In this document: positions 35,476-60,900 of the stretch, piece after piece
How the letters are laid out: each line of letters opens with the position of its first letter
Numbering within the stretch: the stretch's first letter is position 1
Source of the DNA: Leucoraja erinacea
Taxonomy: Eukaryota
NCBI RefSeq assembly: GCF_028641065.1
Contig: NC_073386.1
Span: 40,796,001 to 40,860,000 of the forward strand
Length of the DNA stretch: 64,000 nucleotides
Direction: 5' to 3'
Program-made: the position numbers and the translations under genes
The notes under the pieces: generated by a model
Databases searched by the model: none
Seen by the model: the letters and a program-made list of their open reading frames with translations, nothing else
What the model was told of the DNA's origin: nothing

Positions 35476-35773
35476 GGTGGCACGGTGATGCAGCAGTAGA
35501 CTTGCTATATTACAGCGCCAGGGACCTGGGTTCGATCCTGACTATGGGTGCTGTCTGTGCGTAGTTTGTATGTTTCCCCTGTGACCACGTGGGTTTTCTC
35601 CGGGTATTCTAGTTTCCTCTCACATTCCAAAGACATACAGGTTTGTAGGTTAATTGGCTTTGGTAAAATTGTAAATTGTCCCCAGTGTGTAGAAAAGTGC
35701 TAGCATATGGGGTGATCGATGGTCACCTTGGGCCAAAGGGCCTGTTTCTGCACTGTATCTCTAAAGTCTAAAG
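35476..35773 (+). mobile_element. V-SINE (HE1-like), full length
   Basis: GGTGGCACGGTG head, GGTTCGATCC, V-domain, CR1-like tail. Further copies at about 6905-7430, 14440-14850, 19270-19527, 24380-24685, 25541-25802, 38065-38375, 38660-38950, 40748-41032, 54027-54308, 57643-57800, 58448-58810, 62064-62354. Confidence 0.9.
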
Positions 35774-36692
35774 TAACAGCGGAAACAAGAGCGGAAGGAC
35801 AGAATGCCCCTGGAACCAGCTCTGTTATTTTATAAGACCACAACTGGTTTGCCCTTGTGTCCAGGCCCTGCCTGGTCCTTTGAATTCCCTTATAGAATTA
35901 ATTAATATCTGTCCATCTCCACATTGAATGTGGAAGGTAGACACAAAATGCTGGAGTAACTCAGCAGGACCGGCAGCATCTCTGGAGAGAAGCAATGGGT
36001 GACATTTCGGGTCGAGACCCTTCTTCAGAAACAAAGAATGTGTTCGTTGATTCCACAGCTCTCTAGAGTAGAGAATTCCAAAGATGTGTAAAATCCTCTG
36101 GAAAAAGCCAGAGCTGAACACACTCCTCGGCACCTGCATACAATGGTATCTATCTTGTCCCTTCCTATGTGTGGTGGTGGAGGAAAGATTGGTGGAAACA
36201 GTGCTGTGACGTGAAGCCTCTTTCCTTGACCCCCTCGTCTCTGTTGTAAAATGGCAATGCCTTATTCTGAAACAATCCCCTTATTTCAAGATTGTTCCAC
36301 AAGGGACTCGGTATTCACCCTATTAATTCCCCTCAAAATCTTATATATCATTTTTTTTTAAAATTATTTTTAGAAGCAATTGTACAAGAATAAAACATTC
36401 GGCATATAAAATTATACAATCATTGTACAGCTTCAATTTTAACCTTTTAACGAAAATAATGGGAAAAGAGAAAGGAAAGAACAAGAAAGAGAACAATTGA
36501 AAGGTGAAAACTAGTACCCCTCGACTACCAAAGTAGTGTGGCCAAAAAAATCCTATATATTTTAGTGAGATTACTTCTCCAAGGCTCCAATCATTCTTCC
36601 CACGGCAACTCCTTCATCTCAGAAATCGAGGCAGTGAATCCAATCGGACCTGCCTCTAATGCCAAAAATTTCCTTTCAGAAGTAAGGAGACC

Positions 36693-37885
36693 ACATAGAA
36701 ACATAGAAATTAGGTGCAGGAGTACGCCATTCGGCCCTTCGAGCCTGCACCGCCATTCAATATGATCATGGCTGATCATCCAACTCAGTATCCCGTACCT
36801 GCCTTCTCTCCATACCCCCTGATCCCCTTAGCCACAAGGGCCACATCTAACTCCCTCTTAAATATAGCCAATGAACTGGCCTCAACTACCCTCTGTGGCA
36901 GAGAGTTCCAGAGATTCACCACTCTCTGCGTGAAAAAAGTTCTTCTCATCTCGGTTTTAAAGGATTTTCCCTTTATCCTTAAGCTGTGACCCCTTGTCCT
37001 GGACTTCCCTAACATCGGGAACAATCTTCCTGCATCTAGCCTGTCCAACCCCTTAAGAATTTTGTAAGTTTCTATAAGATCCCCTCTCAATATTCTAAAT
37101 TCTAGCGTGTACAAGCCGAGTCTATCCAGTCTTTCTTCATATGAAAGTCCTGCCATCCCAGGAATCAGTCTGGTGAACCTTCTCTGTACTCCCTCTATGG
37201 CAAGAATGTCTTTCCTCAGATTAGGAGACCAAAACTGTACGCAATACTCCAGGTGTGGTCTCACCAAGACCCTGTACAACCGCAGTAGAACCTCTCTGCT
37301 CCTATACTCAAATCCTTTTGCAATGAAAGCTAACATACCATTCGCTTTCTTTACTGCCTGCTGCACCTGCATGCCTACCTTCAATGACTGGTGTACCATG
37401 ACACCCAGGTCTCGCTGCATCTCCCCCTTTCCCAATCGGCCACCATTTAGATAATAGTCTGCTGCCCTGTTTTTGCCACCAAAATGGATAACCTCACATT
37501 TATCCACATTATACTGCATCTGCCAAACATTTGCCCACTCACCCAGCCTATCCAAGTCACCCTGCAGTCTCCTAGCATCCTCCTCACAGCTAACACTGCC
37601 CCCCAGCTTAGTGTCATCCGCAAACATGGAGATATTGCCTTCAATTCCCTCATCCAGATCATTAATATATATTGTAAATAGCTGGGGTCCCAGTACTGAG
37701 CCTTGGGGTACCCCACTAGTCACTGCCTGCCATTGTGAAAAGGACCCGTTTACTCCTACTCTTTGCTTCCTGTTTGCCAGCCAGTTCTCTATCCACATCA
37801 ATACTGAACCCCCAATGCCTTGTGCTTTAAGTTTGCATACTAATCTCTTATGTGGGACCTTGTCGAAAGCCTTCTGGAAGTCCAA
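36693..37885 (-). mobile_element. Young 5'-truncated CR1 LINE with uninterrupted 366-codon RT/C-terminal ORF (36785-37885)
   Basis: DFQKAFDKVPH...GVPQGSVLGP...FADDTKL...LVRPHLEYCVQFW; 3' UTR with ATGTTTCT tail repeats. Confidence 0.95.
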
Positions 37886-39084
37886 TTGAGTGCAGTCACC
37901 ATTGCCCTGCAGATTGCATATTCCAACCTCCTTTGCAACAACACCCGGCTGTATTTGCTTTTCCGATTACGTGTTGCAGATGTGTTTACATTCCTCAGTT
38001 TCATGTGCCAGGACCTTGAGACCCAGTGAGCTACGATGTTCTGTCGTCTCCCTTCGCTCAAGTAGGACGGCCACGGTGGCCCAGCGGGTAGAGCTGCAGA
38101 CTCACAGCGCCAGAGACCCGGGTTCAACCCTGACCTCCGTCTGGAGCTTGCACACTCTCCCTCTCCCTGCGTGGGATTTCCCCGGGTGCTCTGGTTTCTT
38201 CCCACATCCCAAAGACGTGCAGGTTTATAGATTAATTTGCCTCTGTAAATTCCCCCTGGTGTGTAGAGAGTGGATGAGAATGTGGGATAAGATTGAACTA
38301 GTGTGAACGGGTGATTGATGGTTAGCATGGAGATGGTGGACAGAAGGGCCTGTTTCCATGCTGTACCTCTAAAACAAAATACACTGCTTCTCTATTCCTC
38401 ATCCACATTGTGTAACCACAACTTCCTGTGTGTGTATTTAATGTTCCAAATTGTTGCTCTCTTGCTTGTCCTATCCACATCCCCAGGCAGGTTTTGTGTC
38501 CTTGTCCATCTGCCTAAGTATCATCTTCGGATTTGGCCACAGTGCACTCCAACCTTTCATCCAAGTTATCTGATCGTTAGCCAATTCTTTGTCCACACTG
38601 GTAATTTACCCTTTGTACTATCAGCTCATGCAGTAAAATGCTTTTGGTATCACCTTCACTTTAGACTTGAGAGATACAGCGTGGAAGCAGGCCCTTCAGC
38701 CCACCGAGTCCGTGCTGACCAGCAATCACCCCGTGCACTAGCTCTATCCTACACACACTAGGAACAATGTACAATGTTCAGAAGCAAATTAACCTACAAA
38801 CCTGCATGTCTTTGGAGTTTGGGAGGAAACCAGAGCACCCGGAGAAAACCCACGCAGTCGCAGAGAGAACGTACAAACTTCGTACAAGCAGCATCGTAGT
38901 CAGGATCAAACCTGGGTCTCTGTAAGGCAACAACTCTACCACTCTGCCACCCCAAAGGCATTGCAAAGGCATTGGGGTGGGTGGGCTTTGTAATCAGAGG
39001 GAGTAGACAAAGATTAAAAGGGTTCTGGTAAACGGAAAATGGCAAAATCACAAATTCTCTTGTGCCTTTCATGCTTTGTCTCAG

Positions 39085-39223
39085 ATTAATGCAGTGAACG
39101 ATGTCAGCAGCAGGGAGGATATTAAGCCACCCCCCGGCTTGGGCGGACATGGAAACTTCAACCCTTACAGCCCCAACTCAATGGCCAAGCACATCTGCGC
39201 AATATGTGGAGACAGATCCTCAG
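39085..39223 (+). CDS. RXRG: RXRG exon 3 (end of A/B, start of zinc finger 1)
   Basis: ttgtctcag|ATT AAT... TCA G|gtaatg; [19 protein letters not shown]...[14 protein letters not shown]. Confidence 0.96.
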
Positions 39224-41645
39224 GTAATGCATACACGACTCTGAGGCTCAGTATTGGGGGCCGATGCTCCGGACATTTCATGAGCCATCTCACATTCTGG
39301 TTGTTAGGGTCCCCATTTCTCTTCAGCCATCATTATGAATGTAGACACAAAGTGCTGGAGTAACTCAGCGGGTCAAGCAGCAACTCTGGAGAAAAAGAAT
39401 AGGTGACGTTTTGGGTCGGGACCCTCCTTCAGACTCATCATCCTCCCCAAGTGAAGATGGACAAAAATGTTTCATCTTATTGCATCCCACCTACTGTATG
39501 CCCAAGACACCCCACACACACTTTGACTCTTTAATGACTTTCAGTTTCCAGTCCCTCTGCACCTCCAACCCCCCATCAGACCCAACCAATTTCCCTCTAA
39601 GAATAATCTCCTCCACCTAGTGGACCTGCAAAACAAACATTATTGCACCCATCCTTTTTCTCCAGGGATGCTGCCTGACCCACTGAGTTACTCCATATTT
39701 AGTCTATATTCGGTATAAACCAGCATCTGCAGTTTCTTGCAACACACTGTTATAAATATGTTCTGCCCGTTGCCCATTCTGGACACAGTGTCGAGGAAAG
39801 ATTGAAATACAGGGCTAACATCCCAGAAAGGGATCATCTGGTAACCTGCATCCAGTACATTCTTACAGGAAGAACAGTGAACCACGGTGAGAGGGAGGGA
39901 AAGGCAGTCTGCTCGGATTGTAAATTAACAGAAGAGGTTTGGGTGTTGTTGGAGCTGGGGGGTGTGAAGTGAACAGGGTGGTACAGTGGTGCTTGATGGA
40001 TCTGTGCAGTCGGTCCCTATAATGATGGGTGGCTGAGAGACGGCTCTCTGCTGATTTTAATTATAGTGTGGCACGGGACTTCATAAGTTCTAGGAACAGA
40101 ATTAGGCCATTCGGCCCATCAACTCTACTCCACCATTCAATAATGGCTGACCTATCTTTCCCTCTCAACACCATGCTCCTGCCTTCTCCCCATGACCCCT
40201 GACAACTGTACTAGTCAAGAATCTATTCATCTCCGCCTTAAAAATATCCATTAACTTGGCCGCAATTAATTCCACAGATTCACCGCCCTCTGATTAAAGA
40301 ATTTCCTCCTCATCTCAGTTTAAAGGGCAAGAAGTGCTGCACTGTGGAAGGGGCAATACTGCTTCACTGTAGCAGGGTGATGCCCAGTGTTAAGGCATTG
40401 CTATGCCTGCTATGTTGAGGCACTGCACTCTCTCAACACCATGCCACCTGACATATCAACAGGGAATACTCTACTGGAAATACATCGCTGGTCAGGCAGC
40501 ATCTTTAGTTTGCGGGCCTCATCCTGGTCAGGAGCTGCCCGAATCTGCCCAGAGAGGCATGGGGTTTACAATATCTACACCCTCTACACTGTCCCATCAC
40601 ACACAGGGCTGGGACAGCACAGATTAGATATACAGTATCAGTAAGCAGTCAGGACTGATCAACAGATAGAACAGAAAAACCAGGGAGCAGCAAACTGCTG
40701 GGGATGGGGAGCAGTCAGGGTCAGTGGAGAGAGACTTTTCTAGCATCTTTAGTTTTAGTTTTGGAGATACTGCACGAAAACAGGCCCTTTGGCCCACCGA
40801 GTCCACGCCGACCAGCGGTCCTACACACTAGGGACAATTTCTAGTCTTTACCGAAGCCAATTAACCTACAAACTTGTATGTCTTTGGAGGAAACCAGAAC
40901 ACCCAGAAAAAAACCCACACCGTCACCGGGAGAAGGTACAAACTCTGTACAGACAGCACCCATAGTCAGGATCGAACCCTGGTATCTTGCCCCATGAGGT
41001 AGCAACTCTACCGCTGCGCCTCTGTGCCACCGTCTCTGTGGAGAGGGATACAGCGTTAATACAGTCAGAGGTGTTGTCTTCCCCATACCACATTAAGCTG
41101 AGACACGGTCTGGAGTAAACCCCATGGGCAGATTCGGGCAGATTCGGGCAGCTCCTGACCAGTAGGATCCTCCTGTGCAGAAACCAACCGCCTGCCCAGT
41201 TTTAAGCCGAACAGGAGAGGCTGCGCCTGGGAATTGTTGGCCTTACTGCAGAGAGTCGGCGAGCCCGCTGAAGCTACGGACCCACAGCAGAAATTCAACC
41301 TATTCCATTCTCTTTTAATATAAATGAGAGCACTAGAGCTTTGAAATGTTTAAATCTTTGATGACCCCAGCAATTACATTCAAACGTGCTGCATTATGGA
41401 TGTTTTAATTAGGGCGCTCTGCATTTGTGAGTGGAGTAGTTAGTAGCCGGCACGGGGTGCTCTGATTGATCCCACGAGGGCAAGGGGATGCCGGATGTAA
41501 TGAGCAGCACGGGTGGCACGGTGGTGGCGCAGCGGTACAGTTGCTGTCTCACCTCAGTGTAACCTGCAACCTCAGTGTAATCCTGGCATTGCCTCCTGGT
41601 CGGGCTGTGTCACCGCTGGCCCTCTCTTCACCACACTGGTTCTGA

Positions 41646-41945
<300 letters not shown>

Positions 41946-42029
41946 TAGAGGGTGGGAGACAGAGTAACGCTCCCTCTACACTGTCCCATCACACACTTCC
42001 CAGAGCAGTAAGAGAAGGTTCGATACAGC

Positions 42030-42238
42030 AATGGGGCTGTCCCACTTAGGCGACTGCCAGGGACTAATTTTAATGGGATTCACCCACGACACTTGGCGAC
42101 AACCTACGACAGCACCTACGTCAACCTACAACAACAAACATTCTCCCCAATGTCGCCGAACATTTTTCAACATGTTGAAAATTTTGCGGCAGTCGCCTAA
42201 AGTTGCCCAAAAAATCACTTAAGTGGGACAGGCCCATT
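42030..42238. mobile_element. Small MITE (PIF/Harbinger-like TIR)
   Basis: TIRs AATGGGGCTGTCCCACTTA / TAAGTGGGACAGGCCCATT. Confidence 0.7.
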
Positions 42239-42665
42239 AAGCTCTCTCGTCACTTCTCCATCACATATTGCTAGGGCAGGGACAGCACGGGTTAGATACA
42301 GAGTAGAGTATCAGTAAGCAGGCAGGACTGACCACCAGATTGAAGAGAGAAGCAAGAGAGCCACAAACTGGGAGGAGCCAGGGTGATTGTGGAGAGGCCT
42401 CCATTTTCTAGGCACTACAGGCATGTGAGATGAATACACGCCTGCTCTCCAAAGGCTTGTCCTGCCTCCCTGTGAGTTGTTTATGGGATGACCTGGACCC
42501 TCAGTGTTGGCAGAAGGACAATGTATGAGGAATGGGAGCAGGAGGGAGCTGGCAAGTGTGGGGAGAAGGGGGTGAGAGCCGCAGGGCGGCTGGAGACGGT
42601 GGGTGGGCGAGTATTGGCGCTCGGTGTGATTGCTCGTCAGTGTCAGTCCTGTTTCCCATCCACAG

Positions 42666-42826
42666 CCGTGCAGGAGGAGCGGCAGCGGGGGAAGGAGAGG
42701 AGTGACAACGAGCTGGAGCCCAGCAGCAGCATCAATGACGACATGCCCGTGGAGAAGATTCTAGAAGCCGAGCTGGCTGTGGAGCCAAAGACGGAGACGT
42801 ATGTGGAGGCCAGTCCGGGAAATTCG
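42666..42826 (+). CDS. RXRG: RXRG exon 5 (T-box/hinge, LBD helix 1)
   Basis: ccacag|CC GTG CAG... AAT TCG|gtgtgt; [16 protein letters not shown]...[29 protein letters not shown]; 161 bp. Confidence 0.95.
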
Positions 42827-43059
42827 GTGTGTAGACAGAATCCCTTCCACCTCTCTTTCTGCTTAACTTCAGGACAGGTGGATATTTGTGCCATTTAATT
42901 GTTATGATTCAGACTCTCCTCCTCTGTCTGGGCGGTCTCCCGTCTACCACCATCTTCGCCTGCCTCAGCCGGTGCCAGCATTCACTGCCGGGCACGATGC
43001 CCGTCACCCTATGTCGGATGGAGGGCTGACCCATCACAGCCCAGCAACCGCTAGCCAAA

Positions 43060-43078
43060 TGACCCTGACCTCTGACCT
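43060..43078 (-). promoter_or_regulatory. Composite DR1+DR0 nuclear-receptor response element candidate
   Basis: Plus strand TGACCC TGACCT C TGACCT = AGGTCA-G-AGGTCA-GGGTCA on minus; in non-repetitive sequence of RXRG intron 5. Confidence 0.5.
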
Positions 43079-43769
43079 GTGTCATGTGCATTGATGCCCT
43101 GGTGTGATTCTCATAAGTTCATAAATTCTAGGAGCAGGATTGGGCCATTCGGCCTATCAAGTCTATTCCACCATTCAATCATGGCTGATCTATCTTTCCC
43201 TCACAACCCCAAACTCCTGCCCTCTCCCCATATCTCCTGACACCCTTGCTAATTACGAATCTATCAATTTCTGCCTTAGAAATATCCATAGACCTGGCCT
43301 CCACAACAATGAATTCCACAGATTCACCACCCACTGACTGAAGAAATTCCTCTTATAAAGATATGTCCTGTTATCTGAGGCTATGGCCTCTGGTCCTAGA
43401 CTCTCCCACAAGTGGAGACATCCTCTCCATGGTTACTCTATCCAGGCCTTTCACTCTATTCCGACAATCAAATGCAGAGTGGCCGCTGACCTCGGTTAGA
43501 AACCACCCAGCACCTGGAGTGGTGACATCTCTGTGTTATGTAAACTGAGCGTCCTCCATCACTGCTTCACTAGATTCATGTACTGAACACAAGGTCACCT
43601 CAGTGCTACTGTGGAGAGACATCCTGCTATGTGAGCCTGTTGGCCGGGGCAGGTAGGGGAAGCTTTTGTTTTATCCCAGCCACAAGGGACTGCAGATTGT
43701 GGAATCTTGAGCAAAACACAAAGTGCTGGTGGAAATCTTAAATGTTTAAGAAACATTTAGGTATGTGTA

Positions 43770-44165
43770 AGAAGGAACTGAGGATGCTGGTTTACACCGA
43801 AGATAGACACAAAATGCTGGATATACTCAGCGGGTCAGGCAGCTTCTCTGGAGAAAAGGAATGGGTGACATTTCGGGTCGAGAACCTTCTTCAGACTGAA
43901 AGTCAGGGGAGAGGGAAATTAACAGTTTGAACAAAAGCTCAGAACAAATCAGTGCCGGCACTGATGGCCAAGGAAAGGTGGAGCCCACAATGGTCCATTG
44001 TTGGCTCTGGCAGAGGTGATAACAAAGGGATAAATGGATGTTGACGGTGGAACTATCAGAATGACTAGGGCAGTGGTGGAGGTGGGGGATGGATGAGAGA
44101 GGGAATGCAAGGGTTACTTGAAATTAGATACGTCAGTATTCATTCCACTGGGTTGTAAGCTGACA
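43770..44165 (-). mobile_element. Penelope-like 3' end with hammerhead-like core
   Basis: Minus strand LQPSGMNTDVSNFK*, pyrimidine tract, CTGAAGAAGGTTCTCGACCCGAAATGTC, family tail. Confidence 0.7.
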
Positions 44166-44274
44166 TTTGGAAGCCTTTAGACAGGTACATGGATAGGACG
44201 GGTTTAGAGGGATATGGGCCAAACGCAGGCAAGTGGGACTATATTTACTGTTCAAAATGCTTATGATCGCACAA

Positions 44275-44445
44275 NNNNNNNNNNNNNNNNNNNNNNNNNN
44301 NNNNNNNNNNNNNNNNNNNNNNNNNNNNNNNNNNNNNNNNNNNNNNNNNNNNNNNNNNNNNNNNNNNNNNNNNNNNNNNNNNNNNNNNNNNNNNNNNNNN
44401 NNNNNNNNNNNNNNNNNNNNNNNNNNNNNNNNNNNNNNNNNNNNN
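44275..44445. other. Assembly gap (171 N)
   Basis: Run of N in RXRG intron 5. Confidence 1.
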
Positions 44446-45039
44446 CTGCCCTCTGGTGGTTATTTACAAACTGCCGATCCATCGCACTGAAGTTTGCAGG
44501 GATAGGAGGGAGACTTCCCCAGTGTCGTGATTCAAGGTTGAGTTAAACCGTTCACAGTCTGCTCCAGCCCCTGCTTGCAATCCTGTGCACACAGTGTTCA
44601 GCGTTGATATATCATGCAGAGTTCATTGAGTGTGTAAACTGCTGGTACATAAACTAGAGGTCTCTGATTTGTGCATGAAAGTCTCAACTAATGTTCAGTC
44701 TGCTCGACCTCAGTATATATTAAAGAAGGAAGTTGCCTTGGTATCATTCCTCTGAAAATCCCAGAGAACTTAACAGCCAATGAGGTCCTCCCTTAGGAGC
44801 GTTGCAATGTAAGAAATGCAACGCACGCTGCCAAATACTGCAATTAGATTTTTAAAAGTTTAGAATCATAAGTGTGTAATTGTCATATTCACCAGGATAC
44901 TTGTTGCAGCATTACAGGCACAATGTACACAACACAACAAAAATAAAGGCAACAGCACACTTATAAACCCGGGCTAAACTGGCTACTCTGGCTAAACCAG
45001 ACGGCGATTATGCAAGCCAAAGTACATCAATGCAATCAA

Positions 45040-45480
45040 GTCAAGTTTATTTGTCACATACACATACAAGATGTGCAGTGAAATGAAAGTGGCAATGCCT
45101 GCGGATTGTGCAAAAACTATAGAACAGAAACAGAATCACTATTTACATTTTAGAAAAAAAAACAATTTAAAAAAGACACAACACCACAGTAAATTAGTCC
45201 CTGGTGAGATAAGAGTTTACAGTCCTCATGGCCTGTGGGAAGAAACTCCGTCTCATCCTCTCTGTTTTCACAGCATGACACCTCGGAGGCAGCTGGAACA
45301 GTCCGTTGCTGTGGTGGTAGGGGTCCCCCATAATGTTGCTGGCTCTGGATCTGCACCTCCTGGTGTATAGGTCCTGCAGGGGGATGAGTGTAGTTCCCAT
45401 AGTGCGTTCAGCCGAACGCACTACTCTCTGCAGAGCCTTCCTGCCCTGGGCAGAGCAATTACCGAACCTGATAGTGATCT
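45040..45480 (-). mobile_element. Rex1/Babar LINE 3' fragment
   Basis: FGNCSAQGRKALQRVVRSAERTMG..L..LQDLYTRRCRSRA..I..DPYH...RMRRSFFPQA.R.VN. Confidence 0.85.
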
Positions 45481-46412
45481 TTAGTAGCACTAAGTATAGT
45501 TTAATTTATTGTAACGTGCACCGCAGTACAGTGAAAAGCTTTTTTGCTGTTTATCCGGTCCGGGAAATTACTATACATGCTTACAATCAAGCTGTCCAAT
45601 ACAGGATAAATAGCATAGTTAGAGTAAGAAATGCTGTTGTTGAAATAAAGATTTAAAAGAGTGGAGTGATTGTAATGAACAATTGCAGATCCACTTCTGG
45701 GACGAATATGCAAAGATTCACCTGGCTAAGGCACCAGATGGTGGCAGGACTTTGATGCTGAGGTTGTTATGATTATGGTGGTGCAGGGGGACTCAAAAAT
45801 CTGCCAGTTGATGGGAAGAAGCTGCTCTAGAACCTGGAGATCACGATTCTCAGACTCCTGTACTTTCTTCCCGATGGTAGCAGAGAGATGCTGCTGACTA
45901 GATTTTCTACTAGTCAGAGAGTCTAGGACCAGAGGTCAGAGCCTCAGAATAAAACATTGTACCTTTAGGAAGATGAGGAGGAATTTCTTTCATCGGAGGG
46001 TGTTGAATATGGAATTAATTTCCACAGAAGGCTGTGGAGGTCGACAATTAATATTTTTAAGGCAGAGATTGATAGATTCTTGATTAGAACGGGTGACAGG
46101 GATTATGGGGAGAAGGCGGGGGAATGGGGTTGAGAAGGAAAGAGAGATCAGCCATGATTAAATGGAGTCGACTTGATGGGCCGAATGGCCTAAGTCTGCT
46201 CCTATCACTTAAGAACTTATGAACTTCCCCTGCCTTTTGTCAGACCACCTTCAGACCCAGAAGGGACTCAGCAGTGGGGTTACCTGCGCTATTAAAGGAG
46301 GGCGAGAAAATGAGTCTGAGGAAGGGTCCATGGCTTTGTTTTAGCTTGTGTGATCTGTGGTAACATTGACTAAAACCGCTGTCTGTACCTTCTCCCCCCC
46401 CCGGTCCTCCAG

Positions 46413-46542
46413 TCCAACGACCCAGTCACCAACATCTGTCAGGCGGCAGACAAGCAGCTGTTCACGCTGGTGGAGTGGGCCAAGAGGATCCCTCACTTCT
46501 CCGACCTCCCCCTCGACGATCAGGTCATCCTTCTTCGGGCAG
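46413..46542 (+). CDS. RXRG: RXRG exon 6 (LBD)
   Basis: cctccag|TCC AAC GAC... GCA G|gtgagt; [43 protein letters not shown]; 130 bp. Confidence 0.98.
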
Positions 46543-47064
46543 GTGAGTGGAAGCTCCGAACCCTCGACCAGGCCCAGCCTCGCCCAGTGTGAAAGCATAT
46601 GTTCGTAAGTCATAGGAGCAAAAATTAGGCCATTCGGCCCATCGTCTACTCCACCATTCAATCGTGGCTGATCTATCTTTCCCTCTCAACCCCATTCTCC
46701 TGCCTTCTCCCCATAACCCCTGACACCCTTACGGATCAAGAACCTATCAATCTGCATCTTAAAAATAGCCATTGACTTGGTTTCCACAGCCGTCTATGGC
46801 AATGAATTCAACAGATTCACCACCCTCTGGCTAAAGAAATCCCTCTTCATCTCCTTTCTAAAGGTACATCCTATAGCAGGAGTGCAAAGCACAAAGGGTG
46901 CAGGGAGGAAAGGGGATTGGGAGACGGGTATGTGTAGAGGATAATGAAACAGATTGGAGTTTAATGGTTGAGGCTCTGGTTAACATAGGGCAGGTGGGAA
47001 GAGTCGGCCAGGGGTGCAGAGGGAAGGAAAATTAACAAGAGACTGTAGATGCTGGAATCTTGAG

Positions 47065-47895
47065 CACGAACCTGTGACAGAGGTTCACATGCACCTCCTC
47101 CAACCTCATCTACTACATTCGGTGCTCCCAATGTGGCCACCTTTATATCAGCGAGATCAAACATAGACTACTTTATTATAGTCTAGAGATACACCACGGA
47201 AACAGGCCCTTCGGCCCACCAAAGATAGGCACAAAATGCTGGAGTAACTAGGCGGGACAGGCAGCATCACTGGAGATCAACACCCTTCTTCAGAATCGAT
47301 AGTAGGATTAGGTGAGAAGAAGGGTCTCGACCCGAAACATCACCCATTCCTTCTCTCCAGTGATGCTGCCTGCTCCACAGAGTCACATCAGAATGTTGTG
47401 TCTATCTTCAGTGTAAACCAGCATCTGCAGTTCCATCTTGCACCTTCCGCCTACTGTACACTAACAGTGTCCTACACATTAGGGACAATTTACAATTTTT
47501 ACCGAAGCCAATCAGCCTACAAACCCGCACGTCTTTGGAATGTGGGAGGAAACCAGAGCATCGGTGGAAAACCCACATGGTCACAGGGGGAATGTACAGA
47601 CTGGGTACAGATAGCACCCACAGTTAGGATCGAACCCGGGTCTCTGCCGCTGTAAGGCAGTAACTTTACCGCTGCACCACCTTGCGCCAAATACTTTGTT
47701 GGGTCTGCCAAGGCCTGCTAGATCACCCGGGTTGCTAACTCCGCTTCCCGTTCCCACACTGACCTTCCTGACCTGAGCATCCTCCATGGCCGGAATGAGG
47801 CCACACCAAACTGGAGGAAAGGAACCTCCGATTCCGCTTGGGTAGCTGACAACCCACTGGTATGAACATTGAATTCTCCAATTTTAAGTAACACC
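47065..47895 (+). mobile_element. Penelope GIY-YIG endonuclease remnant split by a V-SINE (about 47170-47680, -) that itself contains a palindromic PLE mini-element
   Basis: QRFTCTSSNLIYYIRCSQCGHLYI.E.KHRL, then ...FRLGS.QPTGMNIEFSNFK*. Confidence 0.7.
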
Positions 47896-48070
47896 TGTCC
47901 ATTTTCTCCCCCATCTCTTTCCTGCCCAACCATCCACCCTGGTGCACCCATTACCCTCTCCCACAGTGGGCCCAAGGGCCTGTTTCATTAGTTCTAGAAG
48001 CAGAATTAGGCAAGTTGGCCCATCTACTCTGCCAGTCATGGCTGATCTATCGTTCCTTCTCAACCCCATT

Positions 48071-48533
48071 AACCATATAACCATATAACAATTACAGCAC
48101 GGAAACAGGCCATCTCGGCCCTACAAGTGCATGCCGAACAAATTTTTTTCCCCTTAGTCCCACCTGCCTGCACTCGTACCATAACCCTCCATTCCCTTCT
48201 CATCCATATGCCTATCCAATTTATTTTTAAATGATACCAATGAACCTGCCTCCACCACTTCCACTGGAAGCTCATTCCACACCGCCACCACTCTCTGCGT
48301 AAAGAAGTTCCCCCTCATATTACCCCTAAACTTCTGTCCCTTAATTCTGAAGTCATGTCCTCTTGTTTGAATCTTCCCTATTCTCAAAGGGAAAAGCTTG
48401 TCACATCAACTCTGTCTATCCCTCTCATCATTTTAAAGACCTCTATCAGGTCCCCCCTTAACCTTCTGCGCTCCAGAGAATAAAGACCTAACTTATTCAA
48501 CCTATCTCTGTAACTTAGTTGTTGAAACCCAGG
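48071..48533 (-). mobile_element. CR1 LINE 3' fragment inserted in another CR1 tail with CCCATT TSD
   Basis: LSYRDRLNKLGLYSLERRRLRGDLIEVFKMMRG, TRGHDFRIKG..FFTQRVVAVWNELP; TSD at 48065-48070 and 48534-48539. Confidence 0.85.
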
Positions 48534-48723
48534 CCCATTCTCCTGCCTTCTCCGCATAACCCCAGACACCCGTACAAATCAAGAAACTGTCGATCTCCGC
48601 TGTAAAAATATCCATGACTTGGCCTCCACAGCCATCTGTGGTTTCCATGTTGTGTCTCTAAACTAAAACTAAAAGGTGTGTGTGCTGTGGATTGGAGGCT
48701 CACCCTGTGCGTCTGCCCTGCAG

Positions 48724-48856
48724 GCTGGAACGAGCTGCTCATCGCCTCCTTCTCGCACCGTTCCATCTCGGTGAAGGACGGCATCCTCCTGGCCACCGGG
48801 CTGCACGTGCACCGCAGCAGTGCCCACAGTGCCGGCGTCGGCTCCATCTTCGACAG
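48724..48856 (+). CDS. RXRG: RXRG exon 7 (LBD)
   Basis: cctgcag|GC TGG AAC... GAC AG|gtaggg; [45 protein letters not shown]; 133 bp. Confidence 0.98.
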
Positions 48857-49272
48857 GTAGGGGAACCGCTGGCCGCGCTCCAGTGCCCTTCCTCCTCTCT
48901 CCCTCCTCCTCCCTACGGCTCCACGCCAGTCGCTGTCAGTGCGTTGGGAGACGATGCTTTACCCACCCTTCCGCACCACCCCGTACCCGACCCGCCGCCT
49001 CCCCCTCCATCACCCCTCTCCCCTCCCCTCAGGCCCATTCTGGAGCGCTGGTGCCCTGTGACACCTCCAGTGAGAGGGCAGTTGTTCGGGTCGGGCCCCT
49101 TCACTGTGTGAATTCGCCCTGGTGTAGGGCAGCGGAAACAAGTGGCCGAGTGTGGGAGAGAGGAACGGGGAGGTCATTAGTGGGACTGATGGGCCTGCTC
49201 CACTGGGGGCTGGCAGGGAGTCGATGAGCTGAATGAGTTTTTTATTCGTTCAGCCCATGTCTCTCCCTCAGG

Positions 49273-49750
49273 ACACGTGACACCCTGTTGTGTACCGTGT
49301 CTCCACACACGTGACCCTGCTGTGTACCGTGTCTCCACACACGTGACCCTGCTGTGTGTACCGTGTCTCTCTACACACGTGACCCTGCTGTGTACTATGT
49401 CTCCACACACGTGACCCTGTTGTGTATGGTGTCTCTACACACGTGACCCTGCTGTGTACTGTGTCTCTACACACGTGACCCTGCTGTGTACTGTGTCTCT
49501 ACACACGTGACCCTGCTGTGGACCATGTCTCCACACACGTGACCCTGCTGTGTACCATGTCTCCACACACGTGACCCTGCTGTGTATGGTGTCTCCACAC
49601 ACGTGACCCTGCTGTGTACCGTGTCTCCACACACGTGACCCTGCTGTGTACCGTGTCTCCACACACGTGACCCTGCTGTGTACCGTGTCTCCACACACGT
49701 GACCCTGCTGTGTATCCGTGTCTCCACACACGTGACCCTGCTGTGTACCA
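49273..49750 (+). repeat. 32-bp minisatellite, 15 copies, in RXRG intron 7
   Basis: Unit CACGTGACCCTGCTGTGTACCGTGTCTCCACA; 15 CACGTG counted (49274 to 49729). Confidence 0.97.
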
Positions 49751-50227
49751 TTGGTGCCACCACACACTTTGCTTCACGCTTCATTTCCGTGCATCAGGGA
49801 GACCAGAGCCCGCCCTGACAACAGTGTTGTGGAGGGCTCGACAGAGGCTGAGTCCGCCCTGCATCTCTCCCTTCCCTGATGACCCATGTAATCCCATCGC
49901 ATGCTACACTTACCCTGACCACAGCGCAGTGCCCATCAGCATCTGGCAGCAGCTTAGTCGGGTAAGGGAGAGACACCGAACCATCACACAATGACCAATG
50001 TACATTCAGGCCAGCACTTGGTTGATGAGTTTATTTTTCAGGGGACCTGTTGGAGGAGGGAGAGGTGGAGAGGAGGTTGGGGCGGAGGTGGCAGAAAGCT
50101 GGTGGTCTGAGGTGACAAGATGCCAGGGTGGGATGAGTGCAGGGATTTTGGATGGTTTTGGTGTTGAGGGGTTAGACAGAGTCCTGGAGAGGAGAGGGAT
50201 TTGCCACAGAGTAACCATTTTATAAAT

Positions 50228-50550
50228 GTAGTTTAGTTTATTGTCACGTGTACCGAGGTACAATGAATAGCTTTTTTGTTGTGTGCTATCCTGTTGGCGG
50301 AAAGACAATACATGATTGCAATCAATCCGGCCACAGTGTACAGATACAGGATAAAAGGAATAACGTTTCGTGCCAGATTAAGACCAGTAAAGTCCGATTG
50401 AAGATAGTCCAAGGGTCTCCAATGAGACAGATAGACTGCTCTCTAGTTGGTGATAGGATGGTTCATTTACCTGATAAACTGTCCCTGAATCTGGGTGTGT
50501 GTGTTTTCACACTTTTATATCTCTTGCCTGATGGGAGAGGAGAGAATAGG
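50228..50550 (-). mobile_element. Rex1-type LINE tail
   Basis: Same family as 20117-20653 (GTGACAATAAACTAAAC tail). Confidence 0.75.
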
Positions 50551-50661
50551 GAACAAAAAACGTAGCCCATTTTGAAATTGAACATTGGGGAGTCAAAATG
50601 GCAAAATAATATATGAGATCACATACAAATGCAGCTCTGATCCTTCTAACATCTCTACTAG

Positions 50662-50753
50662 GGTTTTGACCGAATTGGTTTCCAAGATGAAAGACATGCA
50701 GATGGACAAGACAGAGCTGGGATGCCTGAGAGCCATTGTTCTATTCAATCCAG
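50662..50753 (+). CDS. RXRG: RXRG exon 8 (LBD)
   Basis: ctactag|G GTT TTG... CCA G|gtatgg; [30 protein letters not shown]; 92 bp. Confidence 0.98.
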
Positions 50754-51381
50754 GTATGGCCTGCACCAACACTTTCACAGCGACGGATGAGGAAGGACCA
50801 TGTGGGTGTGAGGACATCGATGCCATGGGGGGGATCAATGGGAACCCGGTGTGGGGGGGCCACTGTGACGGAGGGGGGGAAGAACAATGGACAATGGAGG
50901 ACCCGGCACTGCTGTGAGGGAGGGGGAGGGGTAGAGAACAAAGGGAGACCTGGCGTGGGGTGTACTTTGTAACTTTGTAAGCGCCCTCTATGTGGCGACT
51001 ATTTGCATACCTTGGATATGCAAGCAAGGAAGTTCACTGACTTGTCACATGTGACAATAAAGTATTCATTCATTCAGCTAAGGGTAGTGTTAGTGTGCAG
51101 GCTGATCGCTGGTCGGCACAGACGCTGGGTCGAGGGGCTTATTTTCATGCTGTATCTCAAAAGAGTAAAGTCTGACAAGACAGGCGGTTCTTCAGGGCAG
51201 GATGAATCAGGAAGGGGTTTGGCCGACATAAGTGAGAAGGATGGAGTGAGAAGGATGGCTTTTTTGGTGGAATGGTGTGTAGTGAGTGAATATGATGATC
51301 GTGCTGGTGAAATGTTTGTATCTGGCCTATTCTGTATGTCTGTATTTTAACTAACGTGAATATTTTCAATATGCTTTTTAG

Positions 51382-51487
51382 ATGCTAAAGGCTTATCGAA
51401 CCCAGGTGAGGTGGAATCTTTGAGGGAGAAGGTCTATGCATCTCTAGAAGCTTTCACAAAGCACAAGTACCCAGAGCAGCCAGGCCG
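51382..51487 (+). CDS. RXRG: RXRG exon 9 (LBD)
   Basis: ctttttag|AT GCT AAA... GGC CG|gtaaga; [36 protein letters not shown]; 106 bp. Confidence 0.98.
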
Positions 51488-51770
51488 GTAAGAAACTCCA
51501 CACATCTCTGCTCCTCTGTTGCTGTCATAGCTTCTGTGTAGGGCTGTATTCCCTTGTTCTTAACGTCTCCGCCGATCCTGTCACAACACTGGCATCTACC
51601 CCACAGTGCGGAACATGGAAAAATGCCCAGGTAGCGAAGGATTAAAAGCACCTGGTTTTATCCCTCGCTTTGGGAGCGGCTGCAGACATTACGTGGGCTC
51701 TCCACCACTATCTCCTCCATCAGTCTTGTCACACCAGCTACTGACGAGAACCTTCCCTCTGTCTCCCCAG

Positions 51771-51918
51771 GTTTGCCAAGCTGTTGCTCCGACTGCCGGC
51801 CCTGCGATCGATCGGCCTCAAGTGCCTCGAGCACCTGTTCTTCTTCAAGCTGATCGGCGACACCCCCATCGACACCTTCCTGATGGAGATGCTGGAGGCT
51901 CCTCATCAAATGACGTGA
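51771..51918 (+). CDS. RXRG: RXRG exon 10, coding part (dimer interface, AF-2)
   Basis: tccccag|G TTT GCC AAG...; [51 protein letters not shown] at 51916-51918. Confidence 0.98.
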
Positions 51919-56260: not shown

Positions 56261-57833
56261 TGCTATTGTTGGTAATTGTGCTATTGTTCTGCCTGTATAT
56301 TTTATATATAATACATATAGTGTCTAGTTTATTATTCATGATTGAAAAGTCATCTCAAAAATAGCCCATTGCGCCATGTGGCGTGCACCTTTGGGTCTGA
56401 AGTCTGCATTACACATCTTGCTTCCATTACCACATCTTTATTGCAAGCATCAAAATCACAGCCAGTAACACAAATTGAGAGGTTAATTGACAAAGAAATA
56501 AACTATGCACTGTATACGTGTGTGTGTGTATGTGTACACTTATTGTATACATATACATGCCTGTATACATACATATATACCCGCTTTGTTTATATTTATG
56601 TAGTATAAGTATGAAATAAATTGGCTGTGAGTGGAAGCTACTCTTATTCCAGACCGGGAGAGTCAGGCCTTCATCCAATGCTTGTCCCAGCTTGTATTCT
56701 TTCTGTTGTACTGCCACTGTACAGATAGTCCAAGAATAACTTTCAAAGAAAGGGCGACAGTTGCAGAGATTTGACATCCATTTTCCTTTCACCTGAACAA
56801 ATGCTTATATTTTTGTACTGTATAAATCGGAGATAATGAGCCACTTGCTGCAAATTAGCTCCAAGACACTGCCCCAAGCAGCAGGCACGAGGTATAACAT
56901 GAAGCTTGACATCACTATGTGTCTGTTTGGAGGAGTTTATTCTGTACCTGTCTGTCTTTGGACTGCTCTGCAGCATCTATACAGCTTTGGTATAAACTCT
57001 CTTTTAGCAACAACAACAATTTAACTATTTTGTCTGTAATTGTTTGCTTTGTAAATACACTGTTTAAATTCTGCCTTGTTGTTTGGTGTGTGATTGCTTC
57101 TTCCTTCGGCAGTCTGAGTGAGGGGTTATCACTGACTACAAACAATCAAGTCTTTCCACCCACTTACCATGTAACTGGGGGCAGCACAGTGGAGCAGCGG
57201 TAGATCTGCTGCCTTACAGCACCAGAGACTCGGTCCTGACTATGGGTCACACCACATGGACCCAGATAAACATAGACTCACACAAACCGTCAGTGTTGTG
57301 AATGGGAATATTACCCTCTGCACCCGGACCAAACTCTTCTTGGGAGGAGGTGGGGGAATTGTGAGCTCTGGTTATTTAAATCTACACACAGATCGGCAAC
57401 GTTGCACAACCTCATTGGCTTTCTGCGGCTGAACGAGAAAGACAGCATGTCTTTCCTAACCCTGACACGATGCTTCTGCCACAAAGTACTTTTGAAGAAA
57501 GGTAGCCTTGCTCTATCGATTATACTTGAGTTTGATGATTGTATTCATGTACAGTATTATCTGACCTGATTGGATAGCGTTAAAAACAAATCTTTACACT
57601 ACCTCGTGACATGTGATAATAATAAACCGACACCCAAACCCAGGTGTTGCACGGTGTTGCAGCGGTAGAGTTGCTGCCTTACAGCGCCAGAGACCCAGGT
57701 TCAACCCTGACTACGGGTGCTGTCTGTGAGGAGTTTGTACGTTTTCCCTGCGATCACATGGGATTTCCCCGGGTGCTCTGGTTTCCTCCCACACTCCAAA
57801 GGCATTGGTTTCAGTTTAAAAAAAAATCTAAAT

Positions 57834-58036: not shown

Positions 58037-58383
58037 TCAGTTTAGGTCCATGGTACATTCATACCAAGGATCAGGACCATGAGTGACAGTGGATGGGCCA
58101 AGCAGGGTGAAGCCAGCCTTGGTGTAGAGGGGCAGGAGTTGCAGGTGGCAGATGAGACAGATCCTCCTGGCGGTGGGGCGGGAATGTCGTACGACCTCCA
58201 CAAAGTGCCGGAGCAGGCTCAGGGCGATCCCACGGCGCCGCCACGCCTGGTCCACACACACGGAGTGAATGCAGATGGTTGTCCCTGCAGATTCATGGAC
58301 TTCCATGGACCTCTGGGTGATGTGGTCTGCAACCGATCGAGTCCCACAAATAAATCCCACCAGCTTTCCGTTGATAAAATTAC
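58037..58383 (-). CDS. GNAT acetyltransferase, non-vertebrate-type AANAT / PAA1-like, exon 2
   Basis: Acceptor tttctttcaag|GT AAT TTT in frame with exon 1; (G)NFINGKLVGFICGT...ICIHSVCVDQAWRRRGIALSLL (GNAT motif A)...ICLICH...LYTKAGF (motif B)...HGPDPWYE...MDLN*; spliced product 164 aa. Confidence 0.88.
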
Positions 58384-58874
58384 CTTGAAAGAAATTTAAA
58401 TAGTTACTTTCAGATCACCGTCCCCATCCCCAACCGTGGATATTTGTGGAGGCACGGTGGCGCAGGTGGAGTTGCTGCCTTACAGCACCAGAAACCCTGG
58501 TTCGTTCCTGACTACGGATACTTTCTGCATGGAGTTTGCACATTCTTCCTGTTACTGCATGGGTTTTCTTCGGGTGCTCCGGTTTCCTCCCACATTTAAA
58601 AGATGTGCAGGTTTATAGATTAATTGGCTTTGGTAAACATTGTACAATTGTCACTAGTGTGTAGGATAGTGTAGTGTATGGGGTGAGCACCCGGAGAAAA
58701 CTCACGTGGTCACAGGGAGAATGTGCAATCTACGTACAGACGGCACCCAAAGTCAGGATCACACCCGGGTCTCTCATGCTGTAAGGCAGCAACTCGACCG
58801 CTGTGCCGCCCATGAATGAGAGAATCTGGAGAGGGAAATGATGGACGGGACTGTGGTGAGAATAAGATGAATGC

Positions 58875-59720
58875 ACAAGTTCACAAGTTATAGGAGTAGA
58901 ATTAGGTCGTTCGGTCCATCGAGTCTATTCCGCCATTCAATCATGGCTGATCTCTGCCTCCAAACCCTATTTTCCTGCCTCCTCCCCAAAACCCCTGACA
59001 CCCGTACTAATTAAGAATTTGGCAATCTCCGCCTTAAAAATATCAACTGACTTGGCCTCCATAGCCCACTCTGGCATTGAGTTCCACAGATTAACTACCC
59101 TCTGATTTAAGAAGTTTCTCCTCACCTCCTTTCTAAAAGAGCGCCCTTTAATTCTGTATGACCTCTGGTCCTAGACTCTCCCACTAGTGGAAACATCCTT
59201 TCCACATCCACTCTATGCCTTTCATTATTCTGTAAGTTTCAATGAGGTCCCCCCTCAACCTTCTAAACTCCAGCGAGTACAGGCCCAGTGCTGTCAAATT
59301 CTCATCATATGCCAACCCACTCATTCCTGGAATAATTCCTGTAAACCTCCTCTGGGCCTTATTCAGAGCCAGCACATCCTTCCTAATCTATGGGGCCCAA
59401 ATTAGTTTACAGTACTCCAAATGCGACCTGACCCGCGTTTATAGAGTCTCAGCATTACTTCTCTGTTTTTTGTATTCCAGTCCTCTTGCTATAAATGTTA
59501 GCATTGAATTTGCCTTCCTCATTACGGCTATGACTTGCAAATTAACTTTTTGGGAGTCCTGCACCAGCACTCCCATGCCTCTTTGCATAGATTTACGTAT
59601 TATCTTGCCATTTATAAAATAATCCACGCCTTTATTCTTATTACCAAAATGCATGACCCCGCACTTTACAGAATTTCATCTGCCATCTCTCAGCTCACTC
59701 TCCTAACCCGTCCAAGTCTT
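58875..59720 (-). mobile_element. CR1 LINE 3' fragment in the acetyltransferase intron
   Basis: MHFGNKNKGVDYF..., KANSML.FIARGLEYK, QRRFTGIIPGMSGL...LGLYSLEFRRLRGDLIETY. Confidence 0.85.
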
Positions 59721-60039
59721 TCTTGATCAGAGGGATCTCAGAGTACAAGTAGCAGGTGGACATTGTAGTGACGAAGGCTTTTGGCACGTTGTCCTCCATT
59801 CAGTCAATTAATTAAGAACAGAAGTTGGGACGTTATGCAAGAGTTACACAAGACGATGGTAAGGCTGCATTTGGAGTACACATTGTGTTCAGTTCAGGTC
59901 GGCCAACTCCAGAGAGGTTGCCTGCTCCGAATCAGACACTTTTTGTTGGATGGGTCGTTGATAAGTGTGCGCAGAGGGTCGTGCAATTTCTCTCTAATCT
60001 GACAGTGTTCCAATTAAGATCCTGACAAATTCTGCATTG

Positions 60040-60900
60040 CTAACATTGCACGGTGGCCACGGGATTTAATCCGCCGGCTGGCTGCACACGCTGACGCAAG
60101 GTATTAGTAGTGGCCGAATACTTGCAATGGACAGAATGCAACAGCGCACACAAATCCCCGAGTTGCAATTAAAGCCCAGTCTCTCTCACCTAGGAATAAC
60201 TCGCCCACTTCTCTCTGCCTGTATTGCAGCTTTCTTAAACTGGCCGCTTCCTCCGGCGGAAACGCGGACACTTCCAGAGCCAAGGCGGGGGCTACCTCCT
60301 CTGCCGACAAGGTGCGAATCTCTCCCTCCGGTTGCATTTTACCGGCGCCCGCCAGACCTCTTCTCCAAACCTCGGGCTGCGCTAAAGTGTTCGATCTATT
60401 AAAAGAGAGGGCGGTGCCTGCGGTCAGAGTGTACTCTGCGGTATTCCCTGCACTCCCACATGTACGCCCACAGTTTACCCTGGACGCTCCCCCGTGTGTA
60501 CACAGCACCCCTTGGGTGTCCCCCACTCCACTCTACCCCGCTCTCTATTCCGCCTTGTGCGTTGCACAAAAACAAGATCAAGTGCTGGAGTAACTCAGCA
60601 GGTCAGGCAGCGTCTGTGGGGAACGTGGATCAGTGAACTGTCGGGTCATGCCCTCAATCCGCCGGCACGCTGCTCTTTCGCAAGTCAGTGAGCAGCAGTG
60701 ATTTTGGCGGCCTTCTCTCACGGTCACCCCCTATTTCCACCATTTTTTACAGCGCAAAAATTGAGTTTTTAACAGGTAAGAACGTACGTGTTGCGTGCGT
60801 TTACTAGTGGATGCCGAAAGCTACCTTGTACTCCAGAAGGATTGAGCTGCTCCGTGCGACACGCCCTTTGACCTGATGATCTTACGCGCAACCTCATACC
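60040..60900. promoter_or_regulatory. CpG-rich promoter region of the acetyltransferase gene
   Basis: Visibly high CpG density relative to flanks, spanning exon 1 and upstream sequence. Confidence 0.55.
60190..60337 (-). CDS. GNAT acetyltransferase, non-vertebrate-type AANAT / PAA1-like, exon 1
   Basis: ATG at 60337 (AAAATGC context); MQPEGEIRTLSAEEVAPALALEVSAFPPEEAASLRKLQYRQREVGELFL-G; donor CTA G|GTGAGA, phase 1; lies in a CpG-rich region. Confidence 0.85.

What the first reader, a model, noticed from the sequence alone, without database searches (positions are those of the whole stretch)
58037..60337. Hidden two-exon non-vertebrate-type AANAT (PAA1-like) gene tail-to-tail with RXRG
Seen: two unremarkable ORF-track entries join through a phase-1 GT-AG intron (60189-58384) into an intact 164-aa GNAT, with E..AFPPEEAAS, ELFLG.F...LVGFI.GT, CIHSVCV...RRRG, LYTKAGF and HG..W.E. 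Known: this pattern is that of fungal PAA1 and amphioxus-type AANATs. The protein lacks the RRHT/RRNS 14-3-3/PKA flanks and the paired-His motif of the melatonin-making vertebrate AANAT. As I recall, such a form has been reported in chondrichthyans and is absent from bony vertebrates, so the family itself is not new. Inference: the single intron and the position next to RXRG (in mammals RXRG is followed by LMX1A, and vertebrate AANAT lies elsewhere) may record the ancestral locus, and suggest the NV/VT split was not a simple whole-genome-duplication pair.
Basis: partly seen in the sequence, partly recalled or inferred. Interest (0 to 1): 0.8.

Follow-up and report, generated by a model that had tools for sequence, protein, structure and literature searches.

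The report
Known skate non-vertebrate-type AANAT gene
This is a real and already described skate gene for the old, broad-acting form of the melatonin-pathway enzyme AANAT; the only new point is its chromosomal position, which suggests that the melatonin-making form did not arise from it by whole-genome duplication.

Summary
Exon 1 (60337-60190), a 1806-nt phase-1 GT-AG intron and exon 2 (58383-58037) give an intact 164-aa GNAT, convergent with an RXR gene (probably RXRG) ending at 51918. The gene is not new: the protein matches 160 of 164 residues of the deposited little skate NV-AANAT (UniRef W6SQY3) and nests among 13 chondrichthyan sequences (100/99). It lacks every vertebrate-type hallmark tested and most likely acetylates many amines without circadian control (inferred from amphioxus relatives). 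'Ancestral locus' is not supported: the amphioxus orthologue lies on BFL4 (CLG I/O), not CLG L/M, and amphioxus genes are intronless. 'Not a simple WGD pair' is supported: vertebrate-type AANAT1/2 occupy the 1R pair of CLG H, whereas this gene shares a chromosome with this RXR in 3 of 3 checkable species (CLG L/M). A 2014 paper called that synteny untestable; my searches found no later report, but Falcon 2014 itself could not be read.

The parts
60190..60337 (-). NV-AANAT coding exon 1 (codons 1-49 plus first base of Gly50)
   Evidence: tblastn of relatives
58384..60189 (-). Single phase-1 GT-AG intron, 1806 nt; at least 1002 nt are repeats found elsewhere in the window
58037..58383 (-). NV-AANAT coding exon 2 (Gly50 to stop): GNAT core
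58265..58273 (-). Cys87-x-His89, aligned to ovine His120-x-His122: only the second histidine is kept
   Evidence: alignment; both residues invariant in 54 of 54 aligned homologues
58223..58240 (-). GNAT motif A (residues 98-103), acetyl-CoA pyrophosphate loop
   Evidence: alignment to ovine residues 131-136; region named as acetyl-CoA binding in PMC9160868
58124..58126 (-). Tyr136, aligned to ovine Tyr168
   Evidence: invariant in 54 of 54
60001..60750 (.). CpG-rich stretch over exon 1 and upstream (GC 0.55-0.58, CpG o/e 0.78-0.84): likely promoter
   Evidence: promoter role is inference
56936..56941 (-). Nearest AATAAA downstream of the stop, 1.1 kb away: candidate poly(A) signal
   Evidence: use not shown
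18790..51918 (+). Retinoid X receptor gene (probably RXRG), nine matched coding exons, convergent with the AANAT gene; first exon not located

Best explanation
An intact, ordinary chondrichthyan NV-AANAT gene of a rajid skate (Leucoraja erinacea or a close relative). SHOWN: two exons joining to 164 aa; AANAT fold; placement in the chondrichthyan NV clade; absence of vertebrate-type hallmarks. INFERRED mechanism: a GNAT that binds acetyl-CoA at motif A (98-103), lets a deprotonated primary amine attack the thioester directly, with His89 helping proton exit and Tyr136 protonating the CoA thiolate (roles carried over from ovine His122 and Tyr168; the Tyr role is recalled). With one histidine instead of two and a floppy loop three residues shorter, it should be slower at neutral pH, have an alkaline optimum and accept arylalkylamines, alkylamines and diamines. 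Without the flanking regulatory regions it should escape night-time PKA/14-3-3 control. Its likely job is body-wide amine inactivation or detoxification, not timed melatonin synthesis. INFERRED history: the NV/VT split was a single-gene duplication older than 1R; the VT copy sat on CLG H and was doubled by 1R (AANAT1, AANAT2); the NV copy lies on the CLG L/M chromosome and its location has not been stable across chordates.
For: 160 of 164 residues identical to W6SQY3; PMC4259306 Table 1 lists L. erinacea and C. milii NV-AANATs. Identity 63-86% to ten other elasmobranch proteins, 59% to C. milii NV, 54-55% to three amphioxus proteins, 40-49% to invertebrate, fungal and algal ones against 28% to ovine AANAT. 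Chondrichthyan clade of 13 rows 100/99. Model of the deposited skate protein pLDDT 96.1; top five Foldseek hits are all ovine AANAT, TM 0.80-0.92. Three-residue loop gap, His120 to Cys, no flanks. Amphioxus enzymes: pH optimum 9 or above, broad substrates, expression along the body, no circadian rhythm (PMC2897805). Chondrichthyan NV form expressed throughout the body (PMC4394704 citing Falcon 2014). Synteny.
Against: No activity or expression data for this protein; the amphioxus enzymes assayed were alpha and delta', not the beta form closest to chondrichthyans. Those enzymes have their lowest Km for serotonin (0.01 or below), so serotonin acetylation in vivo is not excluded. The tree holds no vertebrate-type sequence and no yeast Paa1, and does not resolve amphioxus as sister to chondrichthyans (open forks). 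Synteny rests on equal 'longest contig' lengths of protein clusters (same chromosome, not adjacency) and on linking this RXR to the skate 'Rxra-1' on Leri_10C by name and context only. Over the whole ligand-binding domain the Rhinoraja orthologue of this RXR scores higher against solved RXR-alpha than RXR-gamma chains.
Confidence: 0.9

Rival explanations
1. One reading: the RXRG neighbourhood and the intron are the ancestral chordate state of the AANAT gene, and the vertebrate-type copy moved away.
For: Same chromosome as this RXR in Rhinoraja, Heptranchias and Narcine, so the linkage is at least as old as elasmobranchs. Intronless, multi-copy amphioxus genes on several scaffolds could themselves have moved, so amphioxus is an imperfect outgroup.
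Against: B. floridae orthologue on BFL_4 (CLG I/O), not BFL_8 (M) or BFL_15 (L). Amphioxus genes intronless; a review says the same of algal, fungal and bacterial homologues. More than half of the intron is dispersed repeat. Vertebrate-type genes have three coding exons; by recall their introns are at other positions.
Confidence: 0.15
2. Published scenario: NV and VT are ohnologues of a vertebrate whole-genome duplication, and one copy was later translocated, hiding the paralogy.
For: The 2022 review PMC9160868 says the data suggest duplication 'through vertebrate genome duplication'. Neither vertebrate locus matches amphioxus, so the gene has moved at least twice among three lineages and single-gene moves are clearly possible.
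Against: AANAT1 (by RHBDF2, chicken 18, gar LG10) and AANAT2 (by RHBDF1, chicken 14, gar LG13) already fill the 1-alpha/2-alpha slots of CLG H, and lampreys have the VT form. An NV ohnologue would have to be a 2R sister of one VT copy, needing VT features twice or their loss.
Confidence: 0.17
3. The enzyme has a specific physiological substrate (serotonin or another neurotransmitter amine, or polyamines as for yeast Paa1) rather than a general detoxifying role.
For: Amphioxus enzymes show very low Km for serotonin and neural-tube expression. Glu30 is invariant in 54 of 54 homologues and position 29 is acidic in 51 of 54, which would suit cationic substrates. Kept intact in all 12 chondrichthyan species with full-length hits.
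Against: Amphioxus activities fall within a five-fold range over five amines at 10 mM; body-wide expression reported for the chondrichthyan form.
Confidence: 0.25
4. A pseudogene or a chance join of two open frames.
For: 42 GT/AG pairs give some open frame; no RNA evidence was available here.
Against: No stop or frameshift; catalytic residues intact; gap-free match to orthologues across the junction; CpG-rich 5' end.
Confidence: 0.02

Closest known systems
Leucoraja erinacea NV-AANAT, UniRef W6SQY3 (P0001)
   Same: 164 aa, 160 of 164 identical; sister in the tree (100/98).
   Different: K36/Q and P155/A, plus positions 47 and 49, where the deposited record reads the last intron bases instead of the end of exon 1.
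Callorhinchus milii NV-AANAT, UniRef U5LKN1 (P0017); chondrichthyan NV-AANATs of Falcon et al. 2014
   Same: 59% identical, same clade (100/99), same Cys-x-His and short loop.
   Different: Chromosomal position of the chimaera gene could not be checked (no contig length shown).
Amphioxus AANATs (PMC2897805), beta-like P0008, P0015, P0018
   Same: 54-55% identical; no flanks, one histidine, short loop.
   Different: Intronless, seven copies, and on BFL_4 (CLG I/O) rather than a CLG L/M chromosome.
Vertebrate-type AANAT (ovine 1CJW, 1IB1, 1KUV)
   Same: Same fold (TM 0.90-0.92), motif A, His122 and Tyr168 equivalents.
   Different: 28% identity; no His120, no proline tripeptide, no flanking regulatory regions; two coding exons against three; different ancestral linkage group.
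Yeast Paa1 / S. pombe C9.02c-like fungal acetyltransferases
   Same: Fungal homologues at 40-49% identity; several orthologues are named 'C9.02c-like' by NCBI.
   Different: Paa1 itself was not among listed hits and was not compared; the link of C9.02c to Paa1 is recalled.

Membership tests
NV-AANAT | GNAT/AANAT fold with motifs A and B | tested here: met
   Pfam PF00583; only sequence hits at E<=0.001 in PDB are ovine AANAT; Foldseek top five (model of the 97.6% identical P0001)
NV-AANAT | Clusters with described NV-AANATs | tested here: met
   Clade with L. erinacea and C. milii NV records, 100/99; no VT row in that tree
NV-AANAT | Lacks flanks, paired histidines and loop tripeptide | tested here: met
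   features as defined in PMC2897805
NV-AANAT | Broad amine specificity, alkaline optimum, body-wide expression | not testable with these tools
   Known for amphioxus alpha and delta' and reported second-hand for chondrichthyans
NV-AANAT | Intronless gene (amphioxus, microbes) | tested here: not met
   One intron. Descriptive, not defining: the deposited skate NV record shows signs of the same intron
VT-AANAT | His120/His122 pair | tested here: not met
   Cys87-x-His89; Cys in 54 of 54 aligned homologues
VT-AANAT | Proline tripeptide in the floppy loop | tested here: not met
   Three-residue gap against ovine AANAT
VT-AANAT | N- and C-terminal regulatory flanks | tested here: not met
   Residue 3 aligns to ovine 33 and the protein ends 8 residues after the match to ovine 188 of 207; no upstream in-frame Met in the exon 1 frame. 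An unseen upstream exon is not excluded
VT-AANAT | Linkage to RHBDF1/2 and globin genes | tested here: not met
   Neighbour is an RXR gene; VT context. Only 3.7 kb of window lies upstream of the gene
Yeast Paa1 orthologue | Direct sequence or tree relation to Paa1; polyamine acetylation | not tested
   Paa1 not among listed hits
RXRG (neighbour) | Closer to RXR-gamma than to alpha or beta; PBX1-LMX1A-RXRG block | tested here: inconclusive
   For: 3 of 3 teleost hits of the A/B exon are RXR-gamma-B; exon 48726-48857 best to RXR-gamma, 80.2 vs 78.8 bits; skate Pbx1 and 'Rxra-1' baits 130 kb apart on Leri_10C = chicken 8. Against: 3 of 5 named elasmobranch hits are called alpha-B; whole-domain scores favour alpha

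The most novel reading that the evidence does not exclude
The melatonin timezyme did not arise from a vertebrate whole-genome duplication: NV and VT AANAT split by a single-gene relocation before 1R, the VT copy was already on CLG H when 1R produced AANAT1 and AANAT2, and the family sits on three unrelated ancestral linkage groups in amphioxus (I/O), chondrichthyan NV (L/M) and VT (H). This would date the neofunctionalisation to the vertebrate stem before any genome doubling and move AANAT1/2 from 2R to 1R.
Probability: 0.65. Interest if true: 0.45.

Novelty: already known. Interest (0 to 1): 0.3.

Why it matters
The gene and its family are described, so the protein adds nothing categorical. 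Two smaller things are useful. First, the chromosomal position makes testable a point that PMC4259306 said sparse chondrichthyan data had blocked and that a 2022 review attributes to genome duplication: whether the pineal timezyme is a WGD product. The maps assembled here say probably not, which bears on when melatonin timing arose relative to 1R. Second, the deposited skate protein appears mis-joined at two residues, which matters to anyone expressing or aligning it.

Tried and rejected
Falcon et al. 2014 (PNAS), the primary description, is not held; everything from it is second-hand, and it may already describe the intron or neighbours. The 50%-representative search (2049 hits at E<=0.001, best 150 listed) carries no names and yielded no vertebrate-type sequence: among 259 stored proteins (9 of them RXRs) one had a chance RRHS and none of the 166 matching the strand-4 pattern had His at the first position, 142 had Cys. 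So no NV+VT tree could be built. 'Absent from bony vertebrates' was only weakly tested: 13 of the 120 rows listed name a vertebrate, all chondrichthyans, but about 48 rows show no organism, 45 hits were not listed and the search is word-seeded. A second outgroup was sought and not obtained: Mercenaria (contig 104,084,471) and B. belcheri (15,485,220) could not be tied to a linkage group. A search for VT intron sizes found nothing relevant. A search for CLGM with MHC gave nothing useful. Skate gene IDs were considered as a proxy for position and rejected for order: IDs two apart lie 8 Mb apart. Eukaryotic genomic DNA of relatives is not in the collections offered, so intron conservation and gene adjacency in other species stayed unchecked.

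Full report
Observation. On the minus strand, 60337-60190 (148 nt) and 58383-58037 (347 nt) join over a 1806-nt GT-AG intron in phase 1 to 164 codons and a stop. Because 42 GT/AG pairs in the ranges tried give some open frame, the frame alone is weak; homology decides. Both exons are hit by the nine full-length relatives tried, and 11 of 11 other chondrichthyan proteins run through the junction without a gap. Exon 1 lies in a CpG-rich stretch. At least 1002 of the 1806 intron bases are repeats present elsewhere in the window. An RXR gene on the plus strand has nine matched coding exons from 18790 to 51915 and its stop ends at 51918, 6.1 kb from the AANAT stop. I noticed no gene between them, but did not scan that gap against libraries.

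What it is. Exon 2 is 99% identical to UniRef W6SQY3, 'serotonin N-acetyltransferase' of Leucoraja erinacea; the full protein matches at 160 of 164 positions. Table 1 of PMC4259306 lists an L. erinacea NV-AANAT and a C. milii NV-AANAT. In a 32-row tree the window protein is sister to the skate record, inside batoids (99/97), inside a chondrichthyan clade of 13 rows with the C. milii record at its base (100/99). The tree used 31 of the 250 GNATs fetched (30 named, one unnamed), has no vertebrate-type row, is midpoint-rooted and leaves deep forks open. The window is therefore from a rajid skate, L. erinacea or a close relative, and the gene is a known one.

A correction to the deposited record. 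W6SQY3 differs at positions 47 and 49. There it reads the three codons that the end of the intron gives in the exon 2 frame, which would need TT and AT as intron ends. It is the only one of 54 aligned proteins with Phe47 or Gln49. This also implies that whoever assembled the record had the same intron in front of them.

Not the vertebrate type. Against ovine AANAT the skate protein lacks three residues in the floppy loop, has Cys for His120, keeps His122, motif A and Tyr168 equivalents, starts at ovine residue 31 and ends well before residue 207 (run with W6SQY3). These are the features PMC2897805 uses to separate the two groups. Cys87, His89, Tyr136 and Glu30 are invariant in 54 of 54 named homologues. 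A model of W6SQY3 (pLDDT 96.1) matches ovine AANAT best (five top hits, TM 0.80-0.92, 27-28% identity). The nearest ESM Atlas cluster for the Pristis orthologue is a chordate 'serotonin N-acetyltransferase' cluster, possibly its own.

How it most likely works. Shown: fold and residues. Inferred: acetyl transfer from acetyl-CoA to a primary amine, with one histidine for proton exit. PMC2897805 ties the second histidine to faster catalysis and the tripeptide to a slower off-rate, and found amphioxus enzymes with pH optimum 9 or above, activity on putrescine, alkylamines and arylalkylamines within five-fold, expression along the body and no circadian rhythm. A review citing Falcon 2014 reports body-wide expression for the chondrichthyan form. 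I put general amine inactivation first. Against it: the amphioxus enzymes have their lowest Km for serotonin, the beta form closest to sharks was not assayed, and nothing was measured for this protein.

The neighbour. The A/B-domain exon finds nine proteins: six chondrichthyan RXRs (three named alpha-B, two gamma-A, one unspecified) and three teleost proteins, all RXR-gamma-B. One ligand-domain exon scores best to RXR-gamma by a small margin, whereas the Rhinoraja orthologue as a whole scores better to RXR-alpha chains. In the little skate paper a gene called Rxra-1 has its promoter bait at Leri_10C 40.71 Mb and Pbx1 at 40.58 Mb; LER10 equals chicken 8, and PBX1, LMX1A and RXRG share one 881-kb human interval. 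RXRG is thus likely. The argument below does not depend on it much, because chicken 8 and 17 are the two CLG M copies; that RXRA lies on chicken 17 is recalled.

The NV protein and this RXR have the same longest-contig length in Rhinoraja (60,992,755), Heptranchias (89,404,954) and Narcine (257,710,454): 3 of 3 species with both values, out of nine RXR hits. That shows one chromosome, not adjacency. Vertebrate-type genes lie elsewhere: AANAT1 by RHBDF2 and cytoglobin (chicken 18, gar LG10), AANAT2 by RHBDF1 and the globin cluster (chicken 14, gar LG13). In cartilaginous fishes AANAT2 and RHBDF1 flank the globin cluster, and white shark also has an AANAT by UBE2O and cytoglobin. Chicken 14 and 18 are the 1-alpha and 2-alpha copies of CLG H. 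So the two VT genes look like 1R ohnologues on CLG H, lampreys have the VT form, and the NV gene is on a CLG L/M chromosome. The simplest reading is an NV/VT split before 1R, not by WGD. PMC4259306 stated that sparse data precluded this comparison and favoured 2R for AANAT1/2; PMC9160868 attributes NV/VT to genome duplication.

The B. floridae orthologue (54% identical) is on a 34,244,393-bp sequence, the exact length of BFL_4, which derives from CLG I and O; CLG M is BFL_8, CLG L BFL_15, CLG H BFL_13. Amphioxus thus matches neither vertebrate locus. All seven amphioxus genes are intronless, and VT genes have three coding exons, by my recall with introns at other positions. The intron is more simply a gain in the chondrichthyan or vertebrate line. 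Amphioxus copies may themselves have moved, so the ancestral-locus idea is unsupported rather than excluded.

Novelty. The gene and family are already known. Searches for NV-AANAT (five papers), for AANAT with RXRG and synteny (none) and for related phrases since 2014 (nine papers) showed no report of the RXR linkage, but the library lacks most subscription papers and the primary paper.

What I saw of each paper. PMC4259306: introduction and methods, sections 10, 12, first part of 13, passages, supplement rows. PMC2897805: parts 1, 4, 5 of 7 and passages. PMC9160868: passages and section 7. PMC4394704, PMC4730296, PMC7010912, PMC6804575, PMC8053990: passages. PMC7269912: passages, part 2 of 8, supplementary tables, one supplementary passage. 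PMC10115646: passages, first part and searches of a supplementary workbook that is held cut; three PDFs unreadable and may bear on skate gene order. PMC10013865: passages and an empty supplement search. bioRxiv 10.1101/2025.09.19.677436: one passage; its supplements were not seen and hold the synteny figures. Falcon et al. 2014: nothing, known only through citing papers.

Verdict. Real, intact, already deposited NV-AANAT; interest 0.3, carried by the linkage-group argument and the junction correction.

Noticed in passing
window 60199-60190 and 58393-58384: The deposited skate protein W6SQY3 appears mis-joined: it drops the last 10 nt of exon 1 and reads the last 10 nt of the intron, with non-canonical ends.
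   Followed up: yes
window 57834-58031: A 23-bp tandem repeat (about 6 copies, decaying further down) starts 5 nt after the AANAT stop codon, in the presumed 3' UTR.
   Followed up: no
window 56300-57100: AT-rich stretch that looks like a 3' UTR end on the + strand, with AATAAA at 56497 and 56615 (+) and at 56941 (-); the RXR and AANAT transcripts may end within a few hundred bases of each other.
   Followed up: no
window 60410-60396 (-): Pyrimidine tract plus AG 58 nt upstream of the ATG could be an acceptor for an unseen upstream exon; the Rhinoraja model extends 36 residues upstream in this open frame.
   Followed up: no
P0121 residues 89-122; window 8551-8664 and 23588-23659: An extra segment in the Rhinoraja RXR isoform matches two scattered places in the window, one on the opposite strand, so it is probably repeat-derived.
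   Followed up: no
window 44275-44445: Assembly gap of 171 N inside an RXR intron.
   Followed up: no
window 18790-51918: Databases name this chondrichthyan RXR inconsistently (alpha-B in three species, gamma-A in two); it seems to keep alpha-like residues that mammalian RXR-gamma changed.
   Followed up: partly
PMC10115646 SI Table 10, Leri_10C 40.58-40.72 Mb: Pbx1 and RXR promoter baits are only 130 kb apart, which may mean the gene order differs from the mammalian PBX1-LMX1A-RXRG order.
   Followed up: no
PMC7269912 Supplementary Table 6: BFL_4.1 is listed for both CLG I and CLG O and BFL_4.2 for neither, a misprint, so the amphioxus gene can only be placed on I or O.
   Followed up: partly
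P0064 (Hemiscyllium isoform X2): A 134-aa isoform leaves the family sequence just after the Cys-x-His strand, suggesting an alternative donor inside exon 2 in that shark.
   Followed up: no
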